64,000 bases of DNA from Yuukianura sp. NJ FZ-2021 (Eukaryota), in assembly GCA_046563655.1 (NCBI GenBank), contig CM102284.1, positions 7,564,001-7,628,000 on the forward strand, read 5' to 3'. Position numbers and translations under genes: made by a program. The notes below the pieces were generated by a model. The model saw nothing but the letters and a program-made list of their open reading frames with translations, ran no database searches and had not been told where the DNA came from. Positions 16,566 to 49,217 of this stretch are shown piece by piece (position 1 is the stretch's first letter; each line of letters opens with the position of its first letter).

Positions 16566-19383
16566 ATGGAACTGGCAACAGTTTCATGTACGACATTGAA
16601 TCAATTTGCCCTGGACTTTGATGGAAACTGCCAGAGAATACTCAAGAGTATCGAGATTGCCAAGAATCAGGGCTCTCAATTTCGATGTGGTCCAGAACTG
16701 GAGATTACTGGCTATTCATGTGAAGATCACTTTCATGAATCAGACACGTTGACGCATTCCTGGGAAGTACTGGCCAAAATCATGACACATCAAACTTCGC
16801 AAGGAATTCTGGTGGATATTGGAATGCCGATTATGCATCGTTGCGTGACCTACAACTGTCGTGTCGTTTTCCTAAACCGGTAAACTACTAACTATGCTTC
16901 CCAAACTAATACTTTTAGGAATGCTTGTGCTTGATCTGGTGACTTTGTTTTGTTGTTTAGAAAAATCCTCCTGATCCGTCCGAAGATATTCCTGTGCGAT
17001 GACGGTAACTATCGAGAGTCGAGATGGTTCACTGCTTGGTCAAACGTAAGTCTCGTCCAGCATTTAGCTCACGCTGCAGGTTCCTTATGATAGTATTTTA
17101 TTTCAGCGTCGACAAATCGAAGATTTCCAGTTGCCTCCAATCATCCAGAAAATAACTGGACAAAAAACTGTTCCCTTCGGGGATGCTCTTCTTCAACTGA
17201 ATCAGACAGTAGTTGGATTTGAAATCTGCGAAGAATTGTGGTCTCCGCGGAGTACACACATTGATCAGAGTCTAGCCGGAGCTGAAATTATTGTCAACGG
17301 ATCCGGATCTCATGCTGAAATACGAAAAGCTTCTTATGCTCTTACGTTAATCAAATCAGCAACATCCAAGTGCGGTGGCCTCTACGTTTTCAGCAATCTT
17401 CGAGGATGTGACGGTCAGCGAGTTTACCTCAACGGAAGTTCCAGCATTGTGCTCAATGGAAATTCGCTCGTCTTAGGAGAGCAGTATTCTCCTATCGACG
17501 TTGTAAGTTTTCGTAAAAAGTTTAATCACATTCCTGAATTTTCAATGTTGTCAATTGGTTTATCGTAGGAGGTTCACACCGTCGCAGTCGACCTGTCAGA
17601 GATACGAAACTATCGAAACTGGATCCGCAGCAGATGTAGTCAGTCGGACGCTTCTCCATCTTATCCGATGATTTCAGTGGATTGGTCGCTCTCGTCCAAG
17701 GGCATGACCTTGACACTTCCTTTGGCAAAGGAGGAATTCTGCAGTCCAGAAGAAGAAATTGCACGAGGACCTGCACTTTGGCTTTGGGATTACTTGAGAC
17801 GCTCCTCTGCTTCTGGATTTTTTCTGCCGTTGAGTGGTGGTGTGGACTCGGCAAGTGTAGCGCTCATTGTGTATTCCATGTGCCATCTTGTTGTGAATCA
17901 TGTGCTGGACAAGTATCCCGGTGCTCATGAAGTTTTGAAGGACATGAGAAAGGTGTGTCCATTTTAGAATTAAATTATTTTCAAAAACAATTTTTCAAAA
18001 TTCATTGAAATTTTCTCAGATTCTTAGAGATGAGGCCTTTGTTCCGACGACTGCAAAGGACCTGTGTGGACTTCTGTTTACGACGTGCTACATGGGCAGT
18101 GAGAACACTTCGGTGGGAACGCGCCGACGTGCTACGGAATTGGCAGCAGCTATTGGCAGGTCAGACCTGATAGGTTACGGTTCTAGATTTCTCCGTAAAT
18201 TTTGAAAACTACCACCCACCCTGTACTACATTTCTGAAATTCTGATTTTTTTCGTATTTAGTCGCCATCTGAACATTGACATCTCACCAGTTGTCACTGC
18301 TTTCGTGGATCAAGTCACAACTTCAGCTTTAAATAACAACCGTCCAGTGTTTGGTGCAACGCAAGCAGAAAACTTGGCACTCCAGAATGTCCAAGCAAGA
18401 AGTCGTATGGTCTATGCCTACCTGTTGGCGCAGTTATGTCCGTGGTCAGTCGGGAAAAATGGGTAAGACCTTACCAAATATGTCAAAGGTCAAACATTTT
18501 GCCAGAAAATGCTTAAATTTTGAAAGTTTCCTGGTGTTTACCAACAATTTTGTGTCCAGATTTCTTTTAGTCTTGGGTTCGGCCAATGTCGACGAAGCCA
18601 TTCGTGGATACTTTACAAAGTACGACTGCTCTGCTGCCGACTTGAATCCAATCGGTGGTATTTCTAAAACGGACCTCAACAGCTTCATTCTGCATGCCAG
18701 TGAAAAGTAAAAAGTCAAGTATTTAGACATACTGACAATATTTATATAGTTGGATATTTTCTGCAGATTCTCGTTCCCCACCGTTAAAGAAATTGTGGCA
18801 GCTCCACCTACCGCAGAACTTGCTCCGCTCACGATGAATCAAACGGATGAAGAAGACATGGGAATGACCTATGCTGAATTGTCTGATTTTGGAAAGTTAC
18901 GTCTGCCTGGATCGTGTGGTCCGTTTTCAATGGTCGCTCGGTTGTTGCATTTGTGGAAAGATCGACATTCACCTGACGAAATTTCAAGAAAAGTCAAACA
19001 CTTTTACGTTTCTTACGCTTCAAATCGGTATGTTACCCACCATGATACAGAAAAAAAGAACACAGAATTTAGCCTCTTTTTCTCAAAATATGATTGAATT
19101 TTGGTTTTTAGTCACAAGATGTCCACTCTGACTCCAGCATGTCACATGGAATCCTACGGTCCGGAAGATCATCGCTATGACTTGCGTCCCATGTTCTACC
19201 CGAATTTCAAATGGCAATTTCAAAAAATTGATGAAATGGTGAGCAATGGAACAAATTCGGACTTTCTCTGGAATGTTAAGGCTAACGTTGAATTCATCAA
19301 AAATTATACAACTTTTTATTTCGTTTTCCTTACAGGTTGAGTCACACAAATTAGAAAAGAAGCAAGAGTCAGAAGTGGATTGA
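16566..19383 (+). CDS. NADSYN1: Glutamine-dependent NAD+ synthetase, copy A (10 coding exons)
   Basis: Nitrilase-fold triad motifs GPELEI, IRPK and EICEELW. Synthetase motifs [52 protein letters not shown] introns in phase; ends [18 protein letters not shown]. Confidence 0.97.
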
Positions 19384-20109: not shown

Positions 20110-22911
20110 ATGGAACTGGCAACAGTTTCGTGTACAACGTTGAATCAATTTGCCCTGGACTTTGATGGAAACTGCCAGCGAATACTCAAGAGTATTGAAA
20201 TAGCCAAGGGTCAAGGTTCTCGGTTTCGTTGTGGTCCGGAACTGGAGATTACTGGCTATTCATGTGAAGATCACTTTCATGAATCAGATACGTTGGCGCA
20301 TTCCTGGGAAGTACTGGCTGAAATCATGACACATCAAACTTCTCAAGGAATTCTGGTGGACATTGGAATGCCGATTATGCATCATTGCGTGACCTACAAC
20401 TGTCGTGTCGTTTTCCTAAACCGGTAAACTACTAACTATACTTCCCAACCTAATACTTTTAGGAATGCTTATGCTTGATCTGGTGACCTTGTTTTCGTTT
20501 CTCAGAAAAATCTTGCTGATCCGTCCGAAATTATTGTTGTGTGACGACGGTAATTACCGGGAATCGAGATGGTTCACTGCTTGGCCAAAAGTAAGTTTTG
20601 TCCTGCATCTGAGAAATGAAAGTAAACATTCATTTTGGTGATTTTTTTTCCTATTTCAGCGTCGACAAATCGAAGATTTCCAGTTGCCTCCAATTATCCA
20701 GAAAATAACTGGACAAAAAACTGTTCCCTTCGGGGATGCTCTTCTACAACTGAATCAGACAGTAGTTGGATTTGAAATCTGCGAAGAATTGTGGTCTCCG
20801 CGGAGTACGCACATTGATCAGAGTCTAGCCGGAGCTGAAATTATCGTCAACGGATCTGGATCTTATGCTGAAATACCAAAAGCTTCTTATGCCCTTATGT
20901 TAATCAAGTCAGCAACATCCAAGTGCGGTGGCCTCTACGTTTTCAGCAATCTTCGAGGATGTGACGGTCAGCGAGTTTACCTTAACGGAAGTTCCAGCAT
21001 TGTGCTCAATGGAAATTCGCTCGTCTTAGGAGAGCAGTATTCTCCTATCGACGTTGTAAGTTCGTAATCCTAAACATTATCATCACATTCCTGAATTTTC
21101 AATGTTGTCAATTGGTTTATCGTAGGAGGTTCATACCGTCGCAGTCGACCTGTCAGAGATACGAAATTATCGAAACTGGATCCGCAGTAGATGTAGTCAG
21201 TCTGATGCCTCTCCATCTTATCCGATGATTTCGGTGGATTGGTCACTTGCTTCCAAGGGCATGACCTTGACACTGCCTTTGGCAAAGGAGGAATTTTGCA
21301 GTCCAGAAGAAGAAATTGCACGAGGACCTGCACTTTGGCTTTGGGATTACTTAAGGCGCTCGTCTGCTTCTGGATTTTTTCTGCCGTTGAGTGGTGGTGT
21401 GGACTCGGCAAGTGTAGCGCTCATTGTGTATTCCATGTGCCATCTTGTGGTTCAGCATGTGCTGGACAAGTATCCCGGTGCCGATGAAGTTTTGCAGGAC
21501 CTAAGGAAAGTGTGAATTTTAAAATTTAGTTGTTTGTCAAAAACGATTTTTCAAAAATTTGGACTGAAATTGTTCCAGATCCTGCAAGATGAGTCATTTG
21601 TTCCGACGACTGCAAAGGAACTGTGCGGACTACTGTTTACGACATGCTACATGGGCAGTGAGAACTCTTCGGTGGGAACGCGCCGACGTGCTACGGAATT
21701 GGCAGCATCAATTGACAGGTCCGCTTGCTGAATTTACTTAAAAAATTTTTTATAAAGAAACCTACCACGCGATTTCTAAAATTTTAACTTCTTGTTCCAG
21801 CAATCATCTGAACATTGACATCTCACCAGTTGTCACTGCTTGCCTAGATCAAGTGACAACGTCAGCTTTTGACAAGAAACGTCCAGTGTTTGGTGCAACG
21901 CGAGCACAAAACTTGGCACTCCAGAATGTCCAAACAAGAAGTCGTATGGTCTATGCTTATCTGTTGGCGCAGTTATGTCCATGGTCAGTTGGAAAAAATG
22001 GGTAAAAACAGTTTGGTCAAGGTCAAATTATATTTGGTTAATTTCAAAACGTTGAATTTTGTCGAACTTTTTTTCAGATTTCTTTTGGTTTTGGCTTCTT
22101 CTAACGTTAACGAAGCAATTTTTGGTTACTTAACGAAGTACGACTGTTCTGCTGCCGATTTGAATCCAATCGGTGGCATATCCAAAACGGATCTCAAAAG
22201 CTTCGTTCTACATGCCAGTCAAAAGTAAAGTCAACTACATTTTCTGAGATACTGGCAGCATTTATACAGTTCAATCCCTCCTTCAGGTTCGACTTCCCCA
22301 GCATTAAAGAAATTGTGGCAGCTCCACCTACAGCAGAACTTGCTCCGCTCGAGACGAATCAAAATGACGAAGAAGACATGGGGATGACCCATGCTGAATT
22401 GTCCGATTTTGGAAAGCTACGTCTGCCAGAATGCTGTGGTCCGTTTTCAATGGTCGCTCGGTTGTTGCATTTGTGGAAAGATCGACATTCTCCTGACGAA
22501 ATTTCAAGAAAAGTGAAACACTTTTACGTTTCTTACGCCTCAAATCGGTAAGTCACCTATCATGATAAAAAAAAGAGCAAAAAACAAAGAATTTAGCTTC
22601 TTCTTTTGTCAAAATGTGATTGAATTTATGTTTTTAGCCACAAAATGTCCACTCTGACTCCAGCTTGTCACATGGAATCCTACGGTCTGGAAGATCATCG
22701 TTACGACTTGCGTCCCATGTTCTACCCGAGTTTCAAATGGCAATTTCAAAAAATTGATGAAATGGTGAGCAATGGAACAAATTCGGAGTGATTCTCTGGA
22801 ATGTTAACGCTAAAGTTTGATTCATCAAAAATTAGACAACTTTTTATTTCGTTTTCCCTACAGGTTGAGTCACACAAATTAGAAAAGAAGCAAGAGTCAG
22901 AAGTAGATTGA
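20110..22911 (+). CDS. NADSYN1: Glutamine-dependent NAD+ synthetase, tandem copy B (intact frame, divergent)
   Basis: Same 10-exon structure with no stop or frameshift found. Several substitutions at conserved motifs (see findings). Confidence 0.92.
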
Positions 22912-32248: not shown

Positions 32249-35200
32249 ATGGCGCAATGTGGAACTAGGAAGTTCAACAGTTGTTTTCCAGCGATCCGAA
32301 ATTTGAACAATCCCGTTGAAAGTCAATTTAATAAATGCTGGCCCACACCAGACAAGAATTCGGTTTGTCGTGAATTGGAGAGATGCATGAAAGAACAAGA
32401 AGAGAACTGCCCAGCATCCCAGCATCAGCGTCCCCGCTCCGCCCCACCATGCTTGCCTCAGGGCAAAGTCAAGGAACAAAGATACAAAGATGCTTGCTGC
32501 AGTACAGACCCCTGTGATTCGTATCCTTCTCCGTGCGGTCAGCATGCTGCCACCAGTACATATCCAGCATCCTGCGGTCAACATGTTGGCACCAGTACAT
32601 ATCCAGCCTCTTGCGGTCATCCTGCTGCCACTTGTGCCACCAGTGGAGGACCAGTGCCACAAAGTTCGAAAATTTTCAAAATTTCGAAATTTTTAAACTT
32701 TAAAAAATTCGAAATTTGAAAAATTCTAAACTTTTTGATAAATATTTACCTTTGACCTTTAGGATGCCTGGACCTGACCGTGCATGGGCGTGGTATGTCA
32801 CCACCGAATTGCAGAAAAATGTGGCTGCAACAATGTCAACGTCCACCGGAAACGCCTTCGTCTTCTTCCTGCTCATCTTCGGAACATTCCGAGTCGTCAG
32901 AATGTGACGATGAGGAAGATGTGCCGCCGACAAAACCAAAACCGAAACCAAAAATGCCGTTACCGGAAGCCCTCAAACCAACCGGCAGTGAAAACTTACG
33001 CAGAACTGAAGAAATAACGGAACTTCCACCACCCCGAAGTTTGCCTCCACCTCTGCCGCCCAAACCGGTACGACCACCACCGCCGAAACTAGAACCGGTA
33101 CCAAGTCAAGAGTTTACGGTTACTGAACCGGATGAACCGATTGAAGCAGTTCCGGAAATAACAGAGTCTAATTTGACGATTATCATTGAAGACGAGACGC
33201 CAGAAGGAATCGAGGACATTGACATCGAAGTTGAAACGACACTTGAAAATCCCGATACGGTTCATAATATTGTAGTTGAAAAACCTCCAGAAACTACAGT
33301 CGAAGTTTCGACTCCCACTCCTGGAACTTCCAAAGTCACGGCATCAATTCCACTACCACCTCCTCCTCCTCCGCCGGAGGAGGAAGAGGAGGAGGAGGAG
33401 GAACCTCCGACCGAAAGCGAAGTTCCAGCGATTGAGGATGAACCGGAAGTTGAAGAAGAAGAGCCGGAAGTTGAAGAAGAGGAAGAGATTCCGCCTCCAG
33501 CCCTTCCAGCTCCAGAGATTCCTCCAGTGACTCTCCCTCCTGAGCCTCCTCCTCCAGTGATTCCTCCTCCGGTGATCCCTCCTCCGCCAAATCCACTTCC
33601 TCTGATGCCTCCTCCGCCGATTCTGCCTCAGGCAATTCCGCTTCCACCAATTCCTCCTCCCATGATGCTGCCTCAAGCGATTCCGCTTCCAGCGCTTCCA
33701 GCTCCAGTGATTCCCGAAATTGCCAACATTTCACCTCCGACCACTCCGCCCCCAACGCCCAGTGAACATCCAGATCCCTGTCCACGACCAGAAATGGACG
33801 ATGTGGGAACTGAAACTGTCCCAATTAGAAGCAATAACGTCACCACTGCTACAGCAGAAGAACCTTGTTCCGAAGAAGACGAACGAATCATGAAACAACT
33901 TCGGAAAAAGCACACTTGCTTTCTCTGCAAAGAAATTTTGTTTCATGTAAAGAAAATTTTCGACAAAAAAAATTCTAGCAATTTGGAAAAAAAAAGTCCA
34001 AAAAAGTTTCTGTTTTAAATTTTAGACTGTACGCATGGACGGATGTCGCCATTATTTCTGTCGCTACTGTCTCCTCAAGTACATTCAATATAAACAGAAC
34101 TGTCCAGTGTGTGGCAAGAAGTATAAGGGGTACGTGGATTCCAGTAATTTCAGTAGCGTTTACCTTTTGACCTCTGTTGACATTTGTCTTATGACATTGT
34201 GACCTTTGACTTTTGTTGACCTTTGACCTTTGACTTCCAGATTCACTCTGAAACCAGAAGTTGACGCCTGTCTGGATTGCAAATTTGCTCAGCTTTGCCA
34301 AAAGTATCAAAAGCAACGTGAGAATCTGATTGCCTCTCGGTATTTTGCGGAACGTGAACTTTGGCGTGCCCATGCGGAAGCAAATGGAATCAAACAAAAT
34401 GATTTTGACTGCAACCCGGACAGGTCAAAGGTCAATGACCCTGAGACTGCAGTCCAACCTTACGACTGTGGCCTTAAATACAGTAAGTACAGATTTCATT
34501 TTCATATTTCAGATTTCAAAATTGTATATTTTTAATAATTAAAAATATATTATAATAAAATATATCTAAAATATAATAATTAAAAATATAATTTTGAAAT
34601 CTGAAATACAACAATAATTATTATTGTTGGAGTTATGAATTTTTACATTTTAGACAAAATGCAGTATCTAACTTTCGGCGCAGAAGCAAAGTCAAAGGGT
34701 GGCCCATTTTATAAAATGCCGAACCAATGTCAGGCGAAATCCAATTCCGGACGGTACGGAGGAAATTGTTTCACCTGTGGAAAACCGGCTTTCTACGTTC
34801 CGTTTGGCTCCACTGCGCCGCGTTTCGATGACATGGACTGTACGTTTCAGTTTTTCAAAATTCTAAAATTTGAAAATTTCGAAAACTCAAAATTTTGAAC
34901 AGACCAGCAGCAGCAGCAGCCTAATTTAATGTACCCGCCGAACCCCTATCCATACCCCCCTGAAATCAAGACTTCAAAGCGTCGACCTAAGGCTGGACTA
35001 AATTCAAAATTCAAAAACTTTGTGTCGGATGGAACCGAATTTTCGGATTTTCCGGGCTCTGACAAGTTTAAAATGAAATCCAAAGTTAAAAAGAGACCGA
35101 CAACTGATTGTTTTGCAAGTACTTCTTCCTTTAGTACTCGTCCTTTTCCACCAATGGCTACTCAGATGACGTTTGACCAGTATGATCCACTCATACCGTC

Positions 35201-36001: not shown

Positions 36002-36704
36002 AGCATTGTTGCCCAAGTTTTTTCCATTTCGTAATTTCGTGTTATTCAAAAAGCTTGAAATTCTGAAAAGTTTTCAAAAACTTACCAACTTTCAAATGAG
36101 CTTGAAATACATTCGGATTTCGAACAAAAACAAAAAGGCTTCAAGTTTTGTGTGAATTTCAGACTTTAGTTTCATAAAAAATGTTTACCCAATTGGAAAT
36201 TAGAGCGGAAATAGTTAGATTTGAGGTTTGTTTACTCAAGGAACAGAAGGTATCCGGTAAAAGTGTTGGGTTATTGCGGTACCACTTCTGGAATTGTGTA
36301 ACACTTTAGTCTTCCGCCTTCTTTCCAGTTGATCATTGGACACTCAAGTCCTTTTAAGTTATAATTGTTACTCCAATGTAGCTCCAAAGTGTCAAAATGT
36401 TCCATTTTTTATAACGTGAGCGTGAGGTCACGAGGTCAGCGCTAAGTCGTTATGAAAACAGACACTGCGAGGGCGTTGAAAGTTTGTTTTGTTTGGACAA
36501 TCACAACAAATCAACGTCAATCAACAAAAGTTTTTAGCAGTTTCGGAAAGAACGCTGACCAAAGTAGGTCAGAGGGTCAGATTGGCATCAATACAAAACA
36601 GCATTGTCGACAAATTCTGTGAATTTTGAAATTTTCCAGTCGCAGCATTTCGATTTTCGTTTCCTTCAAGTTGTACATTGACTTTGTGTGAGTGACATTG
36701 CAAA

Positions 36705-37420
36705 ATGGACAGGGAAATGCAAACTTTTCGGGGTCACAGCCCCAGACCCTCTCCTGGGGGGCAAGAAACGCCCAAGGCTGTTCCGGGCGTAACAAATATT
36801 CAGCGGGAAGTGGAAGAGGTAGCTAAGTTTTGGCTAAAAATTCAACTTTTGCTGAAACAAAAGTTTAAAAGCTTAATTTTCATCATAAAAAGCTTTCTTT
36901 TGCAAAGTTTTTTGTCAACTTTTGAACAGATTACTGAGATTATGCGAATCAACATGCAGAATATTGTGGAAAGAGAAGCCAAACTTTCAGAATTGGATGG
37001 AAGAGCAGGTTTGTTAATTAGTTTTCGTGATAGATTTAATACAATAGTCAAAGTTAAACTTTTACAATGTTTTTGTTTAAATTTGCAGAAAATTTGAGTG
37101 AGCGGTCTAAAATATTTGAAAAGACTACAAAAACGTTAAAAAGGAAACAGTGGTGGAAAAATATGAAGGTTGACGTTATAATAATTTGTTTATAGTAATA
37201 AAAGATTATTTTTACTTCACTGTTTATAGTATTTTAAAACTTCTTGTTTTCAACAGTGGATCATTATTCTGGGAATTGCTGGATTGATACTGCTGTTGAT
37301 CATTGCTCGTAATAACATCTTGTTTCGAAAAATTTCAAAAAAAAAATCAGAAAACTTAAAAAAATTGTACTAACTTTCATTTGTGTTTTTTTAGTTTGCA
37401 TCTACTTTGCCTTTCCGTAG
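36705..37420 (+). CDS. Synaptobrevin/VAMP-family R-SNARE, paralog 1 (5 exons)
   Basis: IQREVEEITEIMRINMQNIVEREAKLSELDGRAENLSERSKIFEKTTKTLKRKQWWKNMK followed by a C-terminal TM WIIILGIAGLILLLIIALCIYFAFP. Confidence 0.9.
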
Positions 37421-38909: not shown

Positions 38910-39977
38910 ATTTTTTGACACAATTTTCAAAATCCTGCCATATTTCGCGTGTTTCATTTACATCCAAATCCAACCCAGCTTTCTAAATTGATCTAAAAAC
39001 TTCTCACAGTGTTTGTTCAAATAAAATCCGATTAATGGAGTAGAGTTTGAGTCAATATTTGCTCAACTGTAATTTTTTCCAGTGTTTTTTATTTTTCAAT
39101 AAAATCTGCCTCTGTATAAGCGCATCTCTTCAAATATCGCGTCAAATAAGCACTTCAAACTCTTTTCTCATTTCTGAATTGAATAGTGATAGATCATTTA
39201 ATATTTCATTTTTGAAGTTGAAATTGTTCGTGCTGCTGCCACACTTCAGTGACTTTTGAGTTATCGCTGCATACAAATGTCAGTAAAGGTCGTCTCTGAG
39301 GTCAACTGGAACAAATGAACAGAAGTTAGTTTGGTTTTTGATAAGATGAACGTTTGGATAAAATTTAAAACTGGGCTAAAATCCCTGCAATTACACACGC
39401 CATAACTTTTTTTCATTTGAATTCATATTTAGTCTTCTGTAAGTTTTGATTCAACTAGCGTCTAAACTTAGCAGAAATGTTACTAAAATTTTATTTTTTG
39501 GTGACCTTGACTTTGGTGCTTTTGAGTGACCTTGGAGCACTTTCGTACCAGTTTAAACAAAGACGCGGAGGTAAAACATTTTTTTTGGATTTCTTTTTTT
39601 TAGTACTAAAAACAGTCAAAAACAAAGAAGCTTAACAAAAGTGTTTCACACCATGTTCAAAATTTTTCGGTAATTTCAAAAAGATTGTAAGAATATTAAA
39701 AAGTTGAGCTCTGTTTCGTTTAAGGAATTGATGTGAATCCACAGCACGTTCCCATAATCCGTTACACCAGCGAACGGCACACGGTGGTATTTACACCGTT
39801 TTAAGCTTAATTTTTACAGCTTTACTTCACTTGTGACATGCAAACATTATTGACTAAATGTCACTCCCACCTTCTGCGAAAGTGGAACACTTTTTGTCCA
39901 AATTTGTGCACTTCCAATTCATTATATTTTTATAGTCACAACTCTCATGTGTTCACATTTCATACCTTAACCTAACT

Positions 39978-40346
39978 TAACCGTATGGGTGCCACTGGTG
40001 TCACAATTTGTGACACACGTCGGAGTAGTGCCAAATTTTTGAAAGAAATTGTGACGTAGAAGGTGGGGGATTTTATATGTCACGGGAAATATTTTTGGCT
40101 GCACAAACGGACCCCAAACAACACCCTACACGCCTCCATATGCAGAGGCGGATTTTTTAAAATAAAAGCGTCAAAATTTTGCCATACATTCCCCCGTGTC
40201 ACAATTTGTGGCACCCATGGTCAACACGCGTTGTCAGCTGTGTCACAATTTGTGACAACTTTTTCTATGAAGACTAGCCTATGGTACTTTTTGTGCCTCG
40301 ACTAGTAGCACCGACCGTGACAAAACCGATGGTAGCCGTACGGTTA
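39978..40346. mobile_element. Degenerate MITE-like element upstream of the GH125 gene
   Basis: Imperfect TIRs TAACCGTATGGGTGCCA / TGGTAGCCGTACGGTTA. Three internal copies of the near-palindrome GTCACAATTTGTG(A/G)C. Confidence 0.5.
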
Positions 40347-40594
40347 AAGTTAGCCTAACCCAATTTAAAGTTAATTTATACTCGCCAAACTTTAAACACA
40401 ATTGAATTGTTCCAGAGAACAATAAAACTAAAACAATAGATTTTTAGTGCCTTCCTGAATCCCGAATCCGTCGCATTACTTGTGATTTTTCTGAACATTA
40501 AAAGTTAGTTCGAAAAAAGAATTCAGTGAAAGTCATTATTTAGTTCATACTTTTCGAAAAATGAGTTTTGTGTGTTGTGTACTGAAAACTGAAA

Positions 40595-42721
40595 ATGGTT
40601 AATCGTAGTTTGACGAAAAGTCAAGTCAAACTTTTTCGGAGTGTCGGAGGTCAACTGTGGTCAACTAAAATTTGGACCAAGTCATTCTTCCTTGTTCTGC
40701 TAACTGTTACACTCACTTCATTTGTATTCATTGTTACTTTAAGGGGAACCGAAAAAAGCGAAATTGCACAAGTTCAAAGCAAGTTTACAACAAAAAAGTT
40801 AAAAATTTCGGGTCTTTAGACATCTAGAATTTGAAAGCTTTGAATCATTTTTGATTTTCATTTTGATCTTTCAGGTAATTCTGTTACTAAAACAAGAGGT
40901 CACGTGAGACACTCTTCGACTTATAAGAATGTTGGCCCTGGAAATCAAAAAGTTCGTGGCCCGTACCGTGGATCCGGAAAAACCGGTACGAGTTCGACCG
41001 TACCGGATGCTAGACCGGCACCAAGTAAACGGCTCTTCGTGAGTCCAACGGTAGAAGGAGTGATTGATCGCGTTGCGGCCAAAATCACTGATGAAACGCT
41101 TAGACAAATTTTCAAAAATTGCCTTCCAAGTACCTTAGGTGAGAAGACGCTTCTTTTTTTCAAAATCTAAGAAAATGTTCAAAATTTTGAATTTTGATTT
41201 TTTTCTAGACACAACTGTACTGTACCACCACAAGGAAAACGAAACATTCCCTTACACCTATATCATCACTGGCGGTAATTCAGCATTCTAAAATTCCTAA
41301 AATGCTTTTTCAAAATCAAAATTTCGCCCAAAAATTAAACTGAAAATCAGTCCTATTAAGTGCAGTTTTTGTCTAATTTATCGAAATTTTCCATTTTTTT
41401 GCAGATATTGCTGCAATGTGGTTAAGAGATTCTGCGGTAAGTAGCAAAAATGCCAAGAAAAATGAAAATTCTTCAAAAATCAAAATATTTTTTCTTTCAA
41501 TTTTTAAAAAATTTTCTGTTTTCTGTTTCTCGGCTTTCTCATTTTTACTTTTCTCTTTTCTGATTTCAGTACCAAGTGAATCCTTATGTCAAACTGGCCC
41601 GGAATGACAGTGACCTGCGTGACCTCGTCCTCGGGGTCATCAACACCCAAGCAGAAATGATCAATCTCTATCCCTATGGAAACGCTTTTTACCCCCTCAA
41701 GCACTGGAACACCACTTTTCGTCACTCCAAATCATTCTCCAGTGATGACATTGTCCACCCCACGTACAATCCACAAGAAGTATTCGAAGCCAAGTATGAA
41801 CTGGACAGTCTAGCCTCTTTTCTGTATTTGTCCAAGCACTTCTGGGAAGAAACCGGTGACGTTCGATTTCTGTCCAACCCTAACTGGCTATCAGCTGTTA
41901 ACTTAGTCTTAACTACAATGAGAGACCAACAAGCTGGAACAATTGAGATATCACGTCAACCTCCTTATACGTTTACCCGACCAACCAGAACTCAATCTGA
42001 GACACAAAATCTCTACGGTATTGGAAATCCCGTCCAACGGTGCGGACTAATCCGAAGTTTTTTTCGTCCATCCGACGATTCAACGATTTTCCAATTCCTG
42101 ATTCCGTCCAACGCCATGGCCGTCGTGGGCCTGGAAGGAGTTTCGTCCATTCTGGATTCGGAATCCGTCCATCCAGAACTATCTGAGTCACTTAAGTCAT
42201 TGGCCACCGAAGTTCGGACAGCAATTGAAGCTTATGGAATCGTTAACCACCCTACATTAGGACGAGTTTATGCCTACGAAGTTGACTGTTACGGTGGACA
42301 TGTCTTCATGGACGACGGAAATTTTCCGTCTCTGCTGTCACTTCCGTTTTATAAGTTTGTGGCTCGGGATGATCCGGTTTATACTGCTACGCGCCAGTAC
42401 ATCTTGTCTGCCTCTGGAAATCCTTATTTTGCCAGTGGATTGTTTCCTGGAGTCGGCAGTCCACATACAGGACTACAAAAAACTTGGCACTTGGCTCAAG
42501 CCATGCAAGCATTTACTGCTACTGATGAACAGGAAATTGTAAGAATGCTGGCACTACTGCGCGATTCGACAGCAGGAACAGGTCTTATGCATGAGTCGTA
42601 CGATGTTGATAATCCGTCATCCTTTACCCGCTCATGGTTTGCATGGGCGAATACGTTTTTTGGAGATTTGATTCTGTACATTGAAGAAAATTATCCGCAT
42701 CTCCTAGAAACTGAATTTTGA
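40595..42721 (+). CDS. Glycoside hydrolase family 125 (exo-alpha-1,6-mannosidase / Mug157-like) with an N-terminal membrane anchor, 565 aa; exons 40595-40778, 40875-41138, 41209-41274, 41405-41436, 41570-42721
   Basis: GH125 motifs NCLPSTLDTT, IITGDIAAMWLRDS, PYGNAF, KYELDSL, FRPSDD, AYEVD, MDDGNFPSLLSLP, GSPHT, MHES, FTRSWFAWAN. Spliced length 1698 nt, assuming a GC-AG first intron. Confidence 0.93.
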
Positions 42722-42851
42722 GGAACCTTTTTGATACTTGCAGGTCAAAGGTCAAGGTCAAAGTCTTCAAGTACGAAACTTTTTGTTAAAGTGCTAAAAA
42801 ATAAAAATGTATAAACTGTATGCTTATTTGAGTTGTCCTGTTGTGAATATG

Positions 42852-45600
42852 TTAAGTGGGCTTGCAGTAACAGAGTCTTTCTAGGAAGGCGTCTCGAACA
42901 CAGCTGACGTCTGTCGAAATTTTGTTCAAACGTAGAACGTCGGAGTAGATTCGGTAAGTTCCCCAGCCCTCGGGATCTCCTTTCCTTCCAAAGAACATAA
43001 CAGTAGCCTCGAACATGAACTGGCCAGGGTCAGCGTAAAACGCCACAACAAACGTTTTAACAAGGTTCGTTTCTTCGCCAGTTTCGATTTGGGCTCCTGC
43101 GTCCACGTTGAGCAGTTTGAATTCAGCACATTGAGTGGGTACAATAGAATTAATTTCAGTGATTGCTGTTTCAGCGGCTTTCCGTAGATGGGTATCATTG
43201 ACATGGAGACGTCTGGGCACAAAGCAAGCGCAGTAGGCAGCAATAATTCCAGCTTGTGAGCACTTCCGATCCAATGGTACTTGAGTGAAAAGTGACTGGC
43301 CATAGCGTCGATGCATTTCTTCCTTCGTTATTCTGTTTCGAAGGGGCGTAGTTTGTGGTACTACTGTAAATTCATCCAAGATTTGATTCAGCGTCCAGAA
43401 TAGATCGTAAGGTGAGGTCAATCTCCTATACACATAAAACAAGAGAAAGTTAGAGATTCCTTGCATCTACATGATTTTCTTGTCTTGCCAATAAAAACTA
43501 AAGTATATGTTGTCTCCTTACTGAGAATTTACTCGAATTGAGTTTAGCCAGTGCGGATGTGATTTCCGAATGGACGGAGGCAGGTAGATCCAGAGATTTG
43601 GCAGTTTATCTTCGTACCATCCAGCGAATGTTTGTCGAATTGAACCATAGTGGTAGCCGTGATCGGACATGAACAGCATGATAGTATTGGTGAGGTTGAC
43701 ATTACGCAAAAATTCAGCATGCGTTTCATCACCGTATTTCGCACTCATCAGGTTTCCGTGTGCAAGATTCGTCTCCCAAGAGAACGCAAAGTACGGCACG
43801 GTTGTCTTCTGGCTACCTCTGCTGGTGGTGATAACATCGTCGACGTAGCGCAGCATAACTTGTTCGACTGTGTTAGGCCCGAGGCACGGAATCTCGGGGT
43901 GCTGAAAATTCACAACAGTCAGTTACTTTAATTAACGTAATTCAGCATTCAGCTGACTATTTTCTCCAAATTAGTGTCCATTGTGTATAAAAAAAAAGTG
44001 TATATTGTTATGGTGTCAGTTCTTAGTCTTACCTTACTACGTATGTGCTCGTGGACAGAAACCATAAATGGGCTGAAATATTCCCAACACATTCAGATTC
44101 AGCATTTACCTCACTACTTTACAACAAGTTTAACATTTAATTTTTGCATTGGACTATACAGGAAGTTGTACTTACCGTAAGTAAAAATCCGTTGGTTCCA
44201 TAACAAATCCCGTTTTGGCGGAACTGAGCGCTGCTAGTCTTGGTGAATCTTCGATTAAGGCCGTGAGGTATTTAGCCTCGGAAAATCTGGTCCATACATA
44301 GTAAGGATTACATTCGTCTTGGCTTTGTTCGGTACTCAAAAGGCAAGAACGCCCTATCTCATCTTCGGAGTAACCAGAAAGCAATACAAACAAATTTGGA
44401 AGTGTGTTCTGACCGACTACACAAAAGCAGATTAGAAATTAAACTCGCTTGGCTACATGGTGTCGATTAAAGTTCCAACCTTTTGTGTATCCAAGCATTT
44501 CCACTGCTCCGAGGTCTCTGAGGACTTTGCGGGTCCGAGGCATCGTACGATGAAAACTATTTCGTGCCATGGAATCTGCAAATGTAACCAAAGATTTTAT
44601 GTCGGAATAAATCTTAATTCCACGCTATCTTACCAATTCCAATGATGAGGACATTTGGTGGCCTAACTTGAGGGGATGTTCTCCAATGCTTCACCTTTTG
44701 TGTAACTTTGGGTGTTTCTGGGAGTAGAGCCAGGGCGTGAAAACGGCGATAAAGAATATCCGATGTCAAGAGCCAATACTTTGCCTTGCAATGAACTCGG
44801 ATAAACGGTGCTTTCACTGCTGTAATTCTCTCTGTGATCGCTGTACATTCCGAAGAGTACCTAAGATGAATACAGGAAAGTACTACCGATAACACAATAC
44901 AAGCATCATTACCAGGTACTACAGCTCGTCGACATGATTTGGTATTTTTGACTGGCTGGACGTTGCTTACCTTACTCTCCTGTCTGCGTATTTGTCATAC
45001 TTATCAATGGCTTGAGTTATGCGGTGAATTGTATAGTAGCAGCAGGAGACGGACGAAGGGGAGTAACCCGACTGTAGCATTGCAGTTTCGTTGATGAATA
45101 GAAGCTGAAACAAAGGAAATCATGTTAACAACTTACAACTTGATTCGCCAATCCCAACAAAATTAGAGTTCTTACCGTATTATTTGTATATGTCCATAAC
45201 CGAGGTTCTATGGCCGAACAGTCAGGAGGAACAATGTCTTCTTGCATGAGTATTGGCAATACAGATTCATCCCAGGCAGTCAAGTTGAGAATTGAGCAAG
45301 AAGGTGTGCGAATAAGGTATCCTAAGCCAGCTATGTCCTCCGAACTCAGGAAATCTAAGGTCAAAAGTAGTGATAAATGATGATCAAGAGGCTCTTCGAT
45401 TTAAAACGCATTTAAGTGTGACAAGAATTACAGTTATGGCTGAACACGGTGGGCGGGGGTGGTGGATTGTAGTATCGATAGAGTTGAATGGAGTAGAGCC
45501 CGAGACTAAGCAAAAAGATGATGAAGCAGAATGAAAAACAGAACTTCCGGTTGCGTATACTTCTCAAAGGCAGGTGAATGATGTCTGCCATTTGAGTCAT
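42852..45600 (-). CDS. DUF229 family protein (alkaline-phosphatase/sulfatase-like fold, type II membrane), copy 1
   Basis: N-terminal TM; TPSCSI; PNVLIIGIDSMARNSFHRTMPRT; GYTKVGQNTLPN; LAH; MSDHG; RLTSPYDL; RKCSQAGIIAAYCAC; CYC terminus. Introns in phase. Confidence 0.9.
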
Positions 45601-46448: not shown

Positions 46449-49217
46449 TTAAGTGGGCTTGCAGTAACAGAGTCTTTCTAGGAAGGCGTCTCGAACACAG
46501 CTGACGTCGGTCGAAATTTTGTTCAAACGTAGAATGTCGGAGTAGATTCGGTAAGTTCCCCAGCCCTCGGGATCTCCTTTCCTTCCAAAGAACATAACAG
46601 TAGCCTCGAACATGAACTCGCCAGGGTCAGTGTAAAACGCCACAACAAACGTTTTAACAAGGTTCGTTTCTTCGCCAGTTTCGATTTGAGCTCCTGCGTC
46701 CACGTTGAGCAGTTTCAATTGAGCACATTGAGTGGGTACATTAGAATTAATTTCAGTGATTGCAGTTTCTGCGGCTTTCCGTAGATGGGTATCATTGACA
46801 TGGAGCCGTCTGGGCACAAAGCAAGCGCAGTAGGCTGCAATAATTCCAGCTTGTGAGCACTTCCGATCCAATGGTACTTGAGTGAAAAGTGACTGGCCAT
46901 ATCGTCGATGCATTTCTTTCTTCGTTATTCTGTTTCGAAGGGGCGCAGTTTGTGGTACTACAGTAAATTCATCCAAGATTTGACTCAGCGTCCAGAATAG
47001 ATCGTAAGGTGAGGTCAATCTCCTGTACACATAAAACAAGAGTTGTAACGTTAGAGGTTCCTTGCATCAACATGATTTTCTTGTCTTGCCAATAAAAACT
47101 AAAGCATATGTTGTCTCCTTACTGAGAATTTACTCGAATTGAGTTTAGCCAGTGCGGATGTGATTTCCGAATGGACGGAGGTAGGTAGATCCAGAGATTT
47201 GGCAGTTTATCTTCGTACCATCCAGCGAATGTTTGTCGAATTGAACCATAGTGGTAGCCGTGATCGGACATGAACAGCATGATAGTATTGGTGAGGTTGA
47301 CATTACGCAAAAATTCAGCATGCGTTTCATCACCGTATTTCGCACTCATCAGGTTTCCGTGTGCAAGATTTGTCTCCCAAGAGAACGCAAAGTACGGCAC
47401 GGTTGTCTTCTGGCTACTTCTGCTGGTGGTGATAACATCGTCGACGTAGCGCAGCATAACTTGGTCGACTGTGTTAGGCCCGAGGCACGGAATCTCGGCG
47501 TGCTGAAAATTCACAACGGTTAGTTTAATTAACGTATTAATTCAGCATTCAGCTGACTATGTTCTCCAAATTAGTGTTCATTGTATAAAAAAGTGTGTAT
47601 TGTTGTGGTATTAGGTATCAGTTCTTATTAGTCTTACCTCACTATGTGTGTGCTCGTGGACAGAAATCATAAATGGGCTGAAATATTCCCAACAAATTCA
47701 GCATTTACCTCACTCCTTTACAAGTTCAACTTCTAATTTTTGCATTGGACTATACAGCAAGTTGTACTTACCGGAAGAAAAAATCCGTTGGTTCCATAAC
47801 AAATCCCGTTTTGATGTAATTGAACGTTGCTAGTCTTGGTGAATCCTCGACTAAGGCCGTGAGGTATTTAGCCTCGGAAAATCTGCTCCATACGTAGTTA
47901 GGATTACATTCGTCCTGGCTTTGATCATTACTCAAAAGGCAAGACCGCCGTATCTCATCTTCGGAGTAACCAGAAAGCAATACCAGCACATTCGGAAATG
48001 TGTTCTGACCGACTACACAAAAGTAGGAGTAATATTAGAAATTAAACTCGCTTTGATACACCGTGTCGAATAAAGTTCACAAACCTTTTGTATGTCCCAA
48101 CATTTCGACTGCTCCGAGGTCTCTGAGAGCTTTGCGGGTCCGAGGCATCGTACGATGAAAACTATTTCGTGCCATGGAATCTGCAAATGTTTAACCAAAG
48201 TTTTTATACTGGGACAAACTTTAACTCACGGCTATCTTTACCAATTCCAATGATGAGGACATTTGGTGGCCTCACTTGAGGGGATGTTTTCCAATGCTTC
48301 ACCTTTTGTGTAACTTTGGGTGTTTGTGGGAGTAGAACCAGAGCGTGAAAACGGCGATAAAGAATATCCGATGTCAAGAGCCAATACTTTGCCTTGCAAT
48401 GAACTCGGATAAACGGTGCTTTCACTGCTGTAATTCTCTCTGTGATCGCTGTACATTCCGAAGAGTACCTAAGGATGAATACAGGAAAGTACTACCGATA
48501 ACACAATACAAGCATCATTACCAGGTACAGCTCGTCGGCGCTACAAGATTTAGTATTTTTGACTGGCTGGACGTTGCTTACCTTACTCTCCTGTCAGCGA
48601 ATTTGTCATACTTATCAATGGTTTGAGTTATGCGGTGAATTGTATAGTAGCAGCAGGAGATGGACGAAGGGGAGTAACCCGACTGTAACATTGCAGTTTC
48701 GTTGATGAATAGAAGCTGAAACAAAGGAAATCATGTTAACAACTTGCAACTTGATTCGCCAATCCCAACAAAATTAGAGTTACCGCATTATTTGTATATG
48801 TCCATAACCGAGGTTCTATGGCCAAACAGTCAGGAGGAACAATGTCTTCTTGCATGAGTATTGGCAATACAGATTCATCCCAGGCAGTCAAGTTGAGAAT
48901 TGAGCAAGAAGGTGTGCGAATAAGGTATCCTAGGCCAGCTATGTCCTCCGAACTCAGGAAATCTAAGGTCAAAAGTAGTGATAAATGATGATCAAGAGGC
49001 TCTTCGATTTAAAACGCATTTAAGTGTGACATGAATTACAGTTATGGCTGAACACGGTGGGCGGGGGTGGTGGATTGTAGTATCGATAGAGTTGAATGGA
49101 GTAGAGCCCGAGACTAAGCAAAAAGAAGATGAAGCAAAATGAAAAACAGAACTTCCGGTTGCGTGTTTTTTTCCATAAAGGCAAGTGAATGATGTATTCC
49201 ATTTCCATTTGATCCAT
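46449..49217 (-). CDS. DUF229 family protein, tandem copy 2
   Basis: Near-identical exon set to copy 1 (GHTKVGQNTFPN, MSDHG, CYCKPT), with splice sites retained. Confidence 0.9.

What the first reader, a model, noticed from the sequence alone, without database searches (positions are those of the whole stretch)
40595..42721. GH125 alpha-mannosidase in an animal genome: domesticated horizontal-transfer candidate
Seen: a full GH125 domain with both catalytic motifs intact (RPSDD acid, MHE base), four spliceosomal introns confined to the 5' part, one 1152-bp uninterrupted exon, and ordinary animal genes on both sides (VAMPs, DUF229, MCTP). Known: GH125 is a bacterial/fungal family (S. pombe Mug157, clostridial and streptococcal exo-alpha-1,6-mannosidases) and is not part of the usual animal gene set. 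Inference: segments such as DIVHPTYNPQEVFEAKYELDSL and ETQNLYGIGNPV look fungal-type to me, which suggests fungus-to-animal transfer followed by intron gain, perhaps to digest fungal mannan.
Basis: partly seen in the sequence, partly recalled or inferred. Interest (0 to 1): 0.8.

Follow-up and report, generated by a model that had tools for sequence, protein, structure and literature searches.

The report
Fungal-type mannosidase gene in springtail genome
An intact, intron-bearing gene for a fungal-type sugar-trimming enzyme (GH125 alpha-mannosidase) sits among ordinary animal genes in what is most likely a springtail genome, adding one more example to the many fungal and bacterial carbohydrate genes these soil animals are known to have taken up.

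Summary
Window 40595-42721 (+) carries a five-exon, four-intron GH125 gene: PF06824 E 4e-137, catalytic Asp, Glu and Arg in place, 1152-bp last exon. Animal genes flank it.

The host is probably a springtail. A flanking Dus gene is 62-63% identical to springtail proteins and 51% to the next arthropod.

In an 88-row ML tree the window lies in a 31-row clade (100/100) with three named springtails, two sciarid fungus gnats and unnamed sequences. That clade is sister to the fungus Calcarisporiella (100/95) and nested among fungi. An AU test rejects fungi as a clade excluding the animals (p 0.012).

The transfer is old. A 77%-identical metagenome relative has the same four introns, the same membrane anchor and the same VAMP neighbour. 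Composition matches the neighbours, and non-synonymous change is low against saturated synonymous change.

Sciarid copies nest among springtail copies (AU p 0.017, post hoc), which hints at a second, arthropod-to-arthropod hop.

Intron gain, expression and mannan digestion are untested. Verdict: a real horizontal transfer and a new member of a known kind. Interest is moderate.

The parts
40595..40811 (+). Exon 1: start codon, 30-residue basic N-terminal tail and hydrophobic anchor. The 3' border is uncertain.
   Evidence: 11 open solutions for intron 1. L001 has the homologous exon with the same phase-1 end.
40685..40741 (+). Codons of residues 31-49, the predicted signal-anchor (type II membrane) segment.
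   Evidence: the best 19-residue Kyte-Doolittle window has mean 2.52. Six K/R and no D/E precede it. L001 has the same feature at residues 34-52 (2.64).
40812..40874 (+). Intron 1 (63 nt, GT..AG, phase 1). Preferred model, not verified by RNA.
   Evidence: L001 has a phase-1 intron at the matching place.
40875..41138 (+). Exon 2: stem region and the first conserved block, ending ...PSTL.
41139..41208 (+). Intron 2 (70 nt, phase 1).
   Evidence: Same position and phase in L001. Read through at the same site in P0008 and in the sciarid-clade protein P0017.
41209..41274 (+). Exon 3 (66 nt).
41275..41404 (+). Intron 3 (130 nt, phase 1).
   Evidence: Same position in L001. Read through at the same site in P0008.
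41405..41436 (+). Exon 4 (32 nt).
41437..41569 (+). Intron 4 (133 nt, phase 0). Seen only in the window and L001.
   Evidence: The ORFs of P0001, P0004, P0005, P0008, P0011, P0013, P0018, P0019 and P0025 run uninterrupted across this site.
41570..42721 (+). Exon 5 (1152 bp including the stop): most of the GH125 catalytic domain.
   Evidence: PF06824 E 4.3e-137. PDB GH125 chains match at E 1.7e-89 to 1.1e-56. The model's 10 best fold matches are all GH125.
42074..42076 (+). Codon GAC of Asp362, the predicted catalytic general acid (first D of RPSDD).
   Evidence: Aligned with D266 of 2p0v and D220 of 2nvp. Roles from PMC9425025 passages.
42593..42595 (+). Codon GAG of Glu535, the predicted general base (MHE).
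   Evidence: Aligned with E393 of 2nvp. Role.
42629..42631 (+). Codon CGC of Arg547 (FTR), which helps hold the nucleophilic water and the substrate.
   Evidence: Aligned with R405 of 2nvp. Role.
42800..42805 (+). AATAAA, a candidate polyadenylation signal 79 nt after the stop.
   Evidence: Read from the sequence only. Not verified.
36696..37370 (+). Upstream neighbour: a VAMP/synaptobrevin gene, a host gene whose linkage to GH125 is conserved.
   Evidence: Pfam Synaptobrevin at 20.1 bits, below the cut-off. The same gene lies upstream of GH125 in L001, with the SNARE motif 89% identical.
42852..43922 (-). Downstream neighbour: a DUF229 gene, convergent, whose stop lies 130 bp from the GH125 stop. 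Its intron is about 50 nt.
   Evidence: PF02995 E 5e-18 and 2.5e-22. Splice sites read. Short DNA contigs of two runs span 42563-42878 (table 8).

Best explanation
This is a genuine, intact host gene for a GH125 exo-alpha-1,6-mannosidase. It descends from a fungal gene taken up long ago by an ancestor of the host lineage and has been inherited vertically since. The host is most likely a springtail.

Shown:
- family membership;
- conservation of the acid Asp362, the base Glu535 and Arg547;
- a position in the tree nested within fungi;
- linkage to animal genes;
- introns and microsynteny shared with a diverged relative;
- host-like base composition;
- purifying selection.

Inferred mechanism: the protein enters the secretory pathway through an N-terminal signal-anchor (residues 31-49). 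The catalytic (alpha/alpha)6 domain therefore faces the lumen or the outside. By the metal-independent, inverting mechanism of the family, it removes terminal alpha-1,6-linked mannose. The substrate would be either debranched fungal mannan or mannoprotein fragments in the gut, or the cores of N-glycans.

A further inference is that the sciarid fungus-gnat copies derive from a springtail-type, already intron-bearing copy through a second transfer between arthropods.
For: Family and active site:
- PF06824 E 4.3e-137.
- Seven distinct PDB GH125 sequences match at E 1.7e-89 to 1.1e-56.
- D362, E535 and R547 align with the published catalytic residues.
- The window keeps 76 of 78 columns that are at least 95% conserved among 57 fungal, bacterial and unnamed non-clade rows.
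- The 10 best fold matches are all GH125, TM 0.72-0.76.

Host context:
- Animal-type domains lie on both sides.
- The Dus neighbour's best named hits are Allacma fusca 62% and Folsomia candida 63%, then Hyalella 51%.

Origin:
- Careful ML tree of 88 rows and 479 columns. The window's 31-row clade has support 100/100, its sister relation to Calcarisporiella 100/95, and it is nested among fungi with chytrids and Rhizophagus branching outside.
- The AU test rejects fungi held together, p 0.012.

Age and vertical descent:
- L001 is 77% identical over exon 5 and has the same 4 introns and phases, the same anchor, and VAMP upstream.
- In the catalytic domain pN is 0.144 and pS is 0.83, which is saturated.
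- GC 0.459 and GC3 0.428 lie within the neighbours' ranges. RSCU correlates with the neighbours at r 0.59, against 0.26-0.55 for each neighbour versus the rest.

Independent DNA: contigs of four runs from two studies cover the gene including intron-exon borders.

Sciarid link:
- The sciarid clade (100/99) lies inside an 18-row clade (97/99) with Folsomia.
- The AU test rejects springtails plus window as a clade excluding sciarids, p 0.017.
- The sciarid-clade protein P0017 reads through an intron at the window's intron-2 site.
Against: - No RNA run holds the gene, so neither splicing nor expression has been observed.
- The host is inferred from one neighbouring gene only.
- 24 of the 31 clade rows are unnamed. 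'Springtail-wide' and 'sciarids nested in springtails' therefore rest on three named springtails plus the window.
- Allacma fusca, whose Dus protein is in the database, is not among the named GH125 hits.
- Both AU groups were defined after I had seen a tree, and p 0.012-0.017 is moderate.
- Only the 120 best of 7738 hits were listed, so more distant animal GH125 genes elsewhere are not excluded.
- The AlphaFold model is of middling quality: mean pLDDT 72.6, with the RPSDD loop below 50.
- A signal-anchor fits a Golgi or cell-surface enzyme at least as well as a secreted digestive one.
Confidence: 0.8

Rival explanations
1. Vertical descent. GH125 was present in the common ancestor of fungi and animals and was lost in nearly all animals except springtails and sciarids.
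For: Fungi and animals are sister kingdoms. The gene has introns, host-like composition and old microsynteny. Those features are what an ancestral gene would also show.
Against: The animal clade is not sister to all fungi. It lies inside them: chytrids and Rhizophagus branch off first, and Calcarisporiella is its sister (100/95). The AU test rejects fungal monophyly excluding the animals (delta lnL 44.5, p 0.012). Among the 48 named hits of the top 120, the only animals are 2 sciarids and 3 springtails. Sciarids and springtails are not sister taxa among hexapods (lineages).
Confidence: 0.05
2. Contamination or misassembly. A fungal gene was stitched into an animal contig.
For: Springtails eat fungi, so fungal DNA is expected in their sequencing libraries. 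Only short DNA contigs were available to check linkage.
Against: - The window has no N and runs continuously through animal genes on both sides.
- The introns are short and AT-rich like the neighbour's.
- Composition and codon usage match the neighbours.
- An independent metagenome contig has the same VAMP-GH125 arrangement.
- Runs from two studies hold the gene.
- Contigs span 42563-42878, from GH125 into the DUF229 ORF.
- The closest fungus is only 59% identical.
Confidence: 0.02
3. Bacterial donor. The gene came from bacteria, as many springtail CAZyme genes did.
For: Identity to the best bacterial sequences (40-46%) is about the same as to most fungi (42-47%). The solved bacterial enzymes match at E 1e-89.
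Against: In the tree all named bacterial rows and the prokaryote-type metagenome ORFs lie outside a 68-row clade (100/98) that holds the fungi and the animal clade. The N-terminal extension block is shared with fungi.
Confidence: 0.02
4. Separate fungal transfers. Springtails and sciarids each acquired GH125 independently from closely related fungi. There was no arthropod-to-arthropod hop.
For: Both groups feed on fungi in soil. Only one close fungal relative is sampled, so unsampled fungi could lie inside the clade. The basal row P0016 and 23 others are unnamed.
Against: The sciarids are nested among springtail and unnamed rows at 64-67% identity to the window, with no named fungus inside the 31-row clade. 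AU p is 0.017 against springtail monophyly. A sciarid-clade sequence has an intron at the same site and apparent phase as the window's intron 2. There is published precedent of 17 springtail-derived P450 genes in a sciarid, as cited in PMC12051294.
Confidence: 0.2
5. Decaying relic. The gene is present but no longer functional.
For: No RNA evidence is available. The donor site of intron 1 is weak (GTCTTT).
Against: The reading frame is open over 576 codons. 76 of 78 family-conserved columns and all three catalytic residues are kept. Non-synonymous change is far below synonymous change in comparison with L001.
Confidence: 0.05

Closest known systems
Bacterial GH125 exo-alpha-1,6-mannosidases with solved structures (BT3781 2p0v, Bacteroides ovatus 3on6 and 3p2c, Clostridium perfringens CpGH125 2nvp/3qt3/5m7i, Streptococcus pneumoniae SpGH125 3qpf)
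   Same: Same Pfam family. The alignment runs end to end over exon 5 (E 1.7e-89 to 1.1e-56). The catalytic Asp, Glu and Arg are conserved, and the predicted fold is the same.
   Different: Identity is only 33-40%. The window's gene is eukaryotic, with four introns, a roughly 145-residue N-terminal tail, anchor and stem, and animal neighbours. Activity was not assayed.
Fungal GH125 proteins ('Mug157' of Schizosaccharomyces; closest is the Calcarisporiella thermophila protein P0024)
   Same: Sister group in the tree (100/95). P0024 is 59% identical. The N-terminal conserved block ahead of the Pfam core is shared.
   Different: A long stem branch (0.52) separates the animal clade. The two family-conserved columns that the window changes read the same way in most clade members I looked at (...EVDC..., W-H; read by eye, not counted). 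The host is an animal, and the window has a signal-anchor where P0024 appears (by eye) to have a short N-terminal signal peptide. As far as I recall, no fungal member has been characterised biochemically. I did not check this.
Horizontally acquired carbohydrate-active enzyme genes of springtails (809 HGT genes, 229 with CAZy domains, in Folsomia candida; GH43 arabinofuranosidase FcAraf43)
   Same: Same kind of event in the same animal group. About 30% of F. candida HGT genes are shared with Orchesella cincta. FcAraf43 also has Orchesella cincta, Allacma and Bradysia coprophila homologues (passages of PMC5490193 and PMC9460274).
   Different: GH125 and mannosidase are not mentioned in the main text of either paper. 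FcAraf43's closest microbial relative named in the passage I read is a bacterium; this gene's closest non-animal relative is a fungus.
'Alien' genes of sciarid fungus gnats (28 P450 genes, 17 attributed to springtails; terpene synthases attributed to mites)
   Same: An arthropod-type copy of a patchily distributed gene in Sciaridae, most similar to soil micro-arthropod genes (passages of PMC12051294 and PMC11665903).
   Different: A different gene family. Here the ultimate source is fungal, and the sciarid link rests on a tree in which many rows are unnamed.
Native animal alpha-mannosidases (GH38 and GH47 families, for example the lysosomal core-specific alpha-1,6-mannosidase). Recalled, not tested here.
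   Same: Possible functional overlap: trimming of mannose from N-glycans in the secretory or lysosomal pathway, often as type II membrane proteins.
   Different: Unrelated folds and mechanisms. GH125 is metal-independent and inverting (family description in the Pfam name and in PMC9425025).

Membership tests
GH125 (Pfam PF06824, metal-independent alpha-mannosidase) | Sequence match to the family profile above the curated cut-off | tested here: met
   457.8 bits against a cut-off of 23.4, E 4.3e-137, profile positions 47-414 of 414 from exon 5 alone. Exons 2-4 align with the N-terminal part of relatives.
GH125 (Pfam PF06824, metal-independent alpha-mannosidase) | Catalytic general acid Asp (D218 Sp, D220 Cp, D266 BT3781), general base Glu (E393) and the water/substrate-holding Arg (R405) | tested here: met
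   Asp362, Glu535 and Arg547 align with them in HMMER alignments to 2p0v and 2nvp. Roles are from passages of PMC9425025.
GH125 (Pfam PF06824, metal-independent alpha-mannosidase) | (alpha/alpha)6 barrel fold of the solved members | tested here: met
   AlphaFold2 model of exon 5: mean pLDDT 72.6, pTM 0.81, active-site loops of low confidence. The 10 best Foldseek PDB matches are all GH125 (E 1.9e-21 to 4.3e-17, TM 0.72-0.76), followed by other (alpha/alpha)6 glycosidases at about E 1e-4.
GH125 (Pfam PF06824, metal-independent alpha-mannosidase) | Exo-alpha-1,6-mannosidase activity that is metal-independent and inverting | not testable with these tools
   Needs an enzyme assay. 76 of 78 family-conserved columns are kept.
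Horizontally transferred gene resident in an animal genome | Gene tree nests the gene inside the donor group, against the species tree | tested here: met
   Sister to Calcarisporiella (100/95), inside a fungal clade. The AU test rejects fungal monophyly excluding the animals, p 0.012 (group defined after a tree was seen).
Horizontally transferred gene resident in an animal genome | Physical linkage to native host genes, not contamination | tested here: met
   A continuous 64-kb window without N, with animal genes on both sides. The VAMP-GH125 order is repeated on an independent metagenome contig. Short contigs reach from GH125 into the DUF229 ORF. No long-read test was possible.
Horizontally transferred gene resident in an animal genome | Absence from most other animals | tested here: inconclusive
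   Among the 48 organism-named proteins in the 120 best of 7738 hits, the animals are 3 springtails and 2 sciarids only. Lower-ranked hits were not listed, and no animal genome collection could be scanned.
Horizontally transferred gene resident in an animal genome | Expression and correct splicing in the host | not testable with these tools
   No RNA holder was listed for the gene. Two full-length relatives (P0002, P0003) are uninterrupted on contigs of 1674 and 1826 nt, which fits transcripts but does not prove it.

The most novel reading that the evidence does not exclude
The most novel reading has two steps.

First, a zygomycete-grade fungus (a Calcarisporiella-like lineage) gave GH125 to an early springtail. 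The gene then acquired or kept spliceosomal introns.

Second, an already intron-bearing springtail copy moved on into the ancestor of sciarid fungus gnats. GH125 would then join the P450 'aliens' as evidence for a recurrent springtail-to-sciarid gene route.

In the window's own lineage the enzyme was also re-targeted from a secreted form to a type II membrane-anchored form. That would give this animal a non-animal alpha-1,6-mannosidase acting in the Golgi or on the gut brush border.
Probability: 0.3. Interest if true: 0.6.

Novelty: new member of a known kind. Interest (0 to 1): 0.42.

Why it matters
Springtails are a leading animal example of large-scale gene uptake from microbes, and carbohydrate enzymes dominate those genes. 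This locus adds a family (GH125) that I found in no paper on arthropods.

It is also an unusually clean case. It has a clear fungal sister, conserved introns, conserved microsynteny and intact catalytic residues. That makes it a good test bed for three questions:
- how a foreign gene gains introns and host targeting signals;
- whether fungus-feeding soil animals digest the alpha-1,6-mannan backbone of fungal walls with their own enzymes;
- whether genes move between soil arthropods (springtails to fungus gnats).

It does not overturn anything. It fits an established pattern.

Tried and rejected
- RNA support: no RNA holder was listed for the gene. Splicing and expression could not be examined. 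Reads were laid on DNA contigs.
I therefore could not look for paralogues or for partner mannan-degrading genes (GH76, GH92, GH99) elsewhere in the genome.
- My first Dus search used lengths 'longer' by mistake and returned 1 weak hit. The repeat with 'near' gave the host signal.
- The genome-contig scan returned only 4 bacterial loci, because the patterns chosen from my alignment were clade-specific. The bacterial side of the tree therefore rests on these 4, one named protein and unnamed metagenome ORFs.
- Donor gene structure: no collection with fungal DNA was available. One Ascomycota-type metagenome contig (L004) has an ORF uninterrupted at the three conserved intron sites, but it is neither the donor lineage nor surely genomic DNA.
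- The AlphaFold model was used for fold only. The active-site loops are below pLDDT 50, so I made no statement about geometry.
- Contamination, a bacterial donor and vertical descent were considered and set aside. The reasons are given under the rivals.
- I did not try to name the unnamed clade members or the coded runs.
- Supplementary tables of the Folsomia and Orchesella genome papers, which list their HGT genes, were closed. They may already contain the GH125 orthologues.
Full report
THE OBSERVATION

An ATG at 40595 opens a frame that reaches a TGA at 42719-42721 through five exons: 40595-40811, 40875-41138, 41209-41274, 41405-41436 and 41570-42721. The four GT..AG introns measure 63, 70, 130 and 133 nt. 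The introns are AT-rich (GC 0.24-0.27) and the exons are not (0.36-0.47). The last exon is exactly 1152 bp.

Intron 1 has 11 open GT..AG solutions. I prefer 40812-40874 because its acceptor is TCTTTCAG and exon 2 then begins as it does in the closest relative. Every solution leaves the anchor and the catalytic domain untouched.

FAMILY AND ACTIVE SITE

Exon 5 alone matches Pfam PF06824 (GH125, metal-independent alpha-mannosidase) at E 4.3e-137 over profile positions 47-414 of 414. Exons 2-4 supply the rest. Seven distinct PDB sequences, all GH125, match at E 1.7e-89 to 1.1e-56.

Passages of PMC9425025 name three residues. The general acid is D218 (SpGH125), D220 (CpGH125) or D266 (BT3781). E393 is the base that activates the water, and R405 is its partner. 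In the HMMER alignments to 2p0v and 2nvp these fall on the first D of the window's RPSDD, the E of MHE and the R of FTR. In the full-length protein they are Asp362, Glu535 and Arg547.

The window keeps 76 of the 78 alignment columns that are at least 95% conserved among the 57 rows outside its own clade.

An AlphaFold2 model of exon 5 is of middling confidence (mean pLDDT 72.6, pTM 0.81, active-site loops below 50). Its ten best PDB matches are all GH125 structures (TM 0.72-0.76). Membership in GH125 is therefore established as far as sequence can take it. Activity is not.

CONTEXT AND HOST

The window has no N. Around the gene it carries Dus, two CN-hydrolase/NAD-synthase copies, GOLD, carboxylesterase, a VAMP, two DUF229 copies and a C2-domain gene.

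The Dus exon's best named relatives are two springtails, Allacma fusca (62%) and Folsomia candida (63%). Next come the amphipod Hyalella azteca (51%) and insects at about 46% (lineages). The host is thus most likely a springtail or a close relative that is not itself in the protein database. This rests on one gene.

The DUF229 neighbour has a roughly 50-nt GT..AG intron, like the short introns of GH125.

RELATIVES

7738 of 8000 scored candidates matched at E <= 1e-10, and the best 120 were listed. Forty-eight of those carry an organism name: 42 fungi, 1 bacterium and 5 animals.

- The animals are Pseudolycoriella hygida and Bradysia odoriphaga (Sciaridae, 64-65% identity) and Folsomia candida, Orchesella dallaii and O. 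cincta (springtails, 59-67%).
- The closest fungus is Calcarisporiella thermophila (59%).
- All other fungi and the bacterium are at 42-47%.

A metagenome scan added L001 (77% identity over exon 5) and L002 (69%, partial), plus 78 distant loci at 40-46% identity, many on long contigs. A scan of prokaryote genomes added 4 bacterial loci.

THE TREE

I built an 88-row set from these parts:
- the window;
- L001, spliced;
- P0001-P0030;
- 27 further named proteins;
- 29 representatives of a pool of 145 other proteins and locus ORFs. The remaining 116 were dropped because they were at least 62% identical to a kept row. Fourteen named fungi were among those dropped. L002 was left out as partial.

The careful IQ-TREE search (LG+C20+F+G4 PMSF, 479 columns) was rooted on bacteria and gave the following:
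- the bacterial and prokaryote-type rows fall outside;
- a 68-row clade (100/98) holds all fungi and the animal-type sequences;
- within it, chytrids branch first, then Rhizophagus;
- next come two sister groups, Calcarisporiella plus a 31-row animal-type clade (100/95, the clade itself 100/100) and Zoopagomycota plus Ascomycota (100/99).

An AU test rejects the best tree in which the 28 named fungi are held together against the 7 animal and 4 bacterial rows (delta lnL 44.5, p 0.012). I defined this group after seeing a tree, although it is the natural expectation under vertical descent. A fungal origin by horizontal transfer is therefore the best-supported reading.

The direction is fungus to animal. 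Calcarisporiella is sister to the animal clade, not inside it, and the next outgroups are fungi.

HOW OLD, AND IS IT REALLY RESIDENT?

L001 is an independent metagenome contig. It has the same five exons, with introns at the same four positions and phases (116, 95, 74 and 65 nt). It has the same basic tail followed by a strongly hydrophobic 19-residue stretch. It also has the same upstream neighbour, a VAMP gene whose SNARE motif is 89% identical to the window's.

Between the two, the catalytic domain shows pN 0.144 against pS 0.83. The synonymous value is saturated, so selection has been strongly purifying.

Exon 5's GC (0.459), GC3 (0.428) and codon usage (RSCU r 0.59 with the pooled neighbours) are indistinguishable from 11 neighbouring host ORFs.

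Short DNA contigs from four runs of two studies cover the gene, including exon-intron borders. They also reach from its 3' end into the DUF229 ORF. These points argue against contamination and for long residence.

INTRONS

- Introns 2 and 3 are older than the window's lineage. The predicted proteins P0008 and P0017 contain read-through inserts exactly at the window's intron-2 site, and P0008 also at intron 3.
- P0017 lies in the sciarid clade.
- Intron 4 is seen only in the window and L001. Nine other clade ORFs run straight across its site.

Introns have therefore turned over since the transfer.

THE SCIARID LINK

The sciarid clade (10 rows, 100/99) sits inside an 18-row clade (97/99) with Folsomia. 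Orchesella and then the window plus L001 branch outside it. Holding the window and the three named springtails together against sciarids, fungi and bacteria costs 27.8 log-likelihood units (p-AU 0.017, a post hoc group).

This repeats a published pattern:
- 28 'alien' P450 genes of Bradysia coprophila, 17 of them attributed to springtails (as cited in PMC12051294, passages);
- terpene synthases attributed to mites (PMC11665903, passages);
- a springtail GH43 with a B. coprophila homologue (PMC9460274, passages).

The caveat is that 24 of the 31 clade rows are unnamed.

LIKELY FUNCTION

By homology the enzyme removes terminal alpha-1,6-linked mannose by an inverting, metal-independent mechanism, using Asp362 and Glu535.

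The N-terminus has 30 residues with six K/R and no acidic residue, followed by a 19-residue segment of mean hydropathy 2.52. It looks like a signal-anchor. Springtail, sciarid and Calcarisporiella relatives appear, by eye, to have short N-terminal signal peptides instead.

The catalytic domain should therefore face the lumen or the exterior. I cannot tell whether it works on dietary fungal mannan at the gut surface or on N-glycans in the Golgi. I lean to the dietary role (about 60:40) because of the host group's fungal diet and the known enrichment of acquired carbohydrate enzymes in springtails (PMC5490193, passages).

NOVELTY

Horizontal acquisition of carbohydrate-active enzymes by springtails is well documented. 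Folsomia candida has 809 HGT genes, 229 of them with CAZy domains. About 30% are shared with O. cincta, and Rhizophagus is named as the likely source in 87 cases.

I ran four full-text searches:
- GH125 with horizontal gene transfer and Collembola;
- GH125 with springtail and sciarid names;
- GH125 with horizontal gene transfer (34 papers, 25 listed);
- Bradysia with HGT, springtails and alpha-mannosidase.

None of the listed papers concerned GH125 in an arthropod.

I therefore rate this a new member of a known kind. It is real and clean, and moderately interesting mainly for the possible springtail-to-sciarid hop and the change of targeting signal.

Noticed in passing
window 39977-40343: A 367-bp insertion lies about 250 bp upstream of the GH125 start and is absent from DNA contigs of three runs. 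The joint is 39976->40344, with 4 letters fitting both sides. The insertion has 23-nt terminal inverted repeats that begin with TTAA, and three copies of a 19-nt palindrome-like motif. It looks like a polymorphic MITE with a TTAA target duplication. The piggyBac-like label is recalled, not tested.
   Followed up: partly
window 39493-41487 (run X5): In the run from the second study, a 1657-nt contig is circularly permuted over 39493-39976 plus 40344-41487 (joint 41487->39493). Its depth is about 65, against about 5 in the flanks and 1-5 over exon 5. This could be a tandem amplification or a circle of the promoter plus exons 1-4 in that sample, or an assembly quirk.
   Followed up: no
window 36696-37370 and L001 944-1823: The VAMP/synaptobrevin gene lies directly upstream of GH125 in both the window and the 77%-identical metagenome relative. 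The foreign gene has therefore kept its chromosomal neighbour through considerable divergence.
   Followed up: yes
window 17068-17967 and 20642-21515; 42852-43922 and 46449-47541: There are two tandem duplications of host genes: a CN-hydrolase/NAD-synthase pair on the + strand and a DUF229 pair on the - strand. The DUF229 copies are nearly identical around their intron.
   Followed up: partly
proteins P0006, P0009, P0016: The two named sciarid GH125 proteins and the basal unnamed clade member end in a hydrophobic C-terminal tail that looks like a GPI-anchor signal. The window's protein instead has an N-terminal anchor. Membrane attachment may have been solved differently in different lineages.
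   Followed up: no
Allacma fusca proteins are in the database (its Dus is a top hit). No Allacma GH125 appears among the named top hits, so the gene may be missing or unannotated in that springtail order.
   Followed up: no
window 32756-34018 (+) and 550-1343 (both strands): A 420-codon open frame with no Pfam match lies in a locally GC-rich stretch (0.46). At the window's start, overlapping long open frames occur on both strands in another GC-rich stretch (0.47). I did not examine their nature.
   Followed up: no
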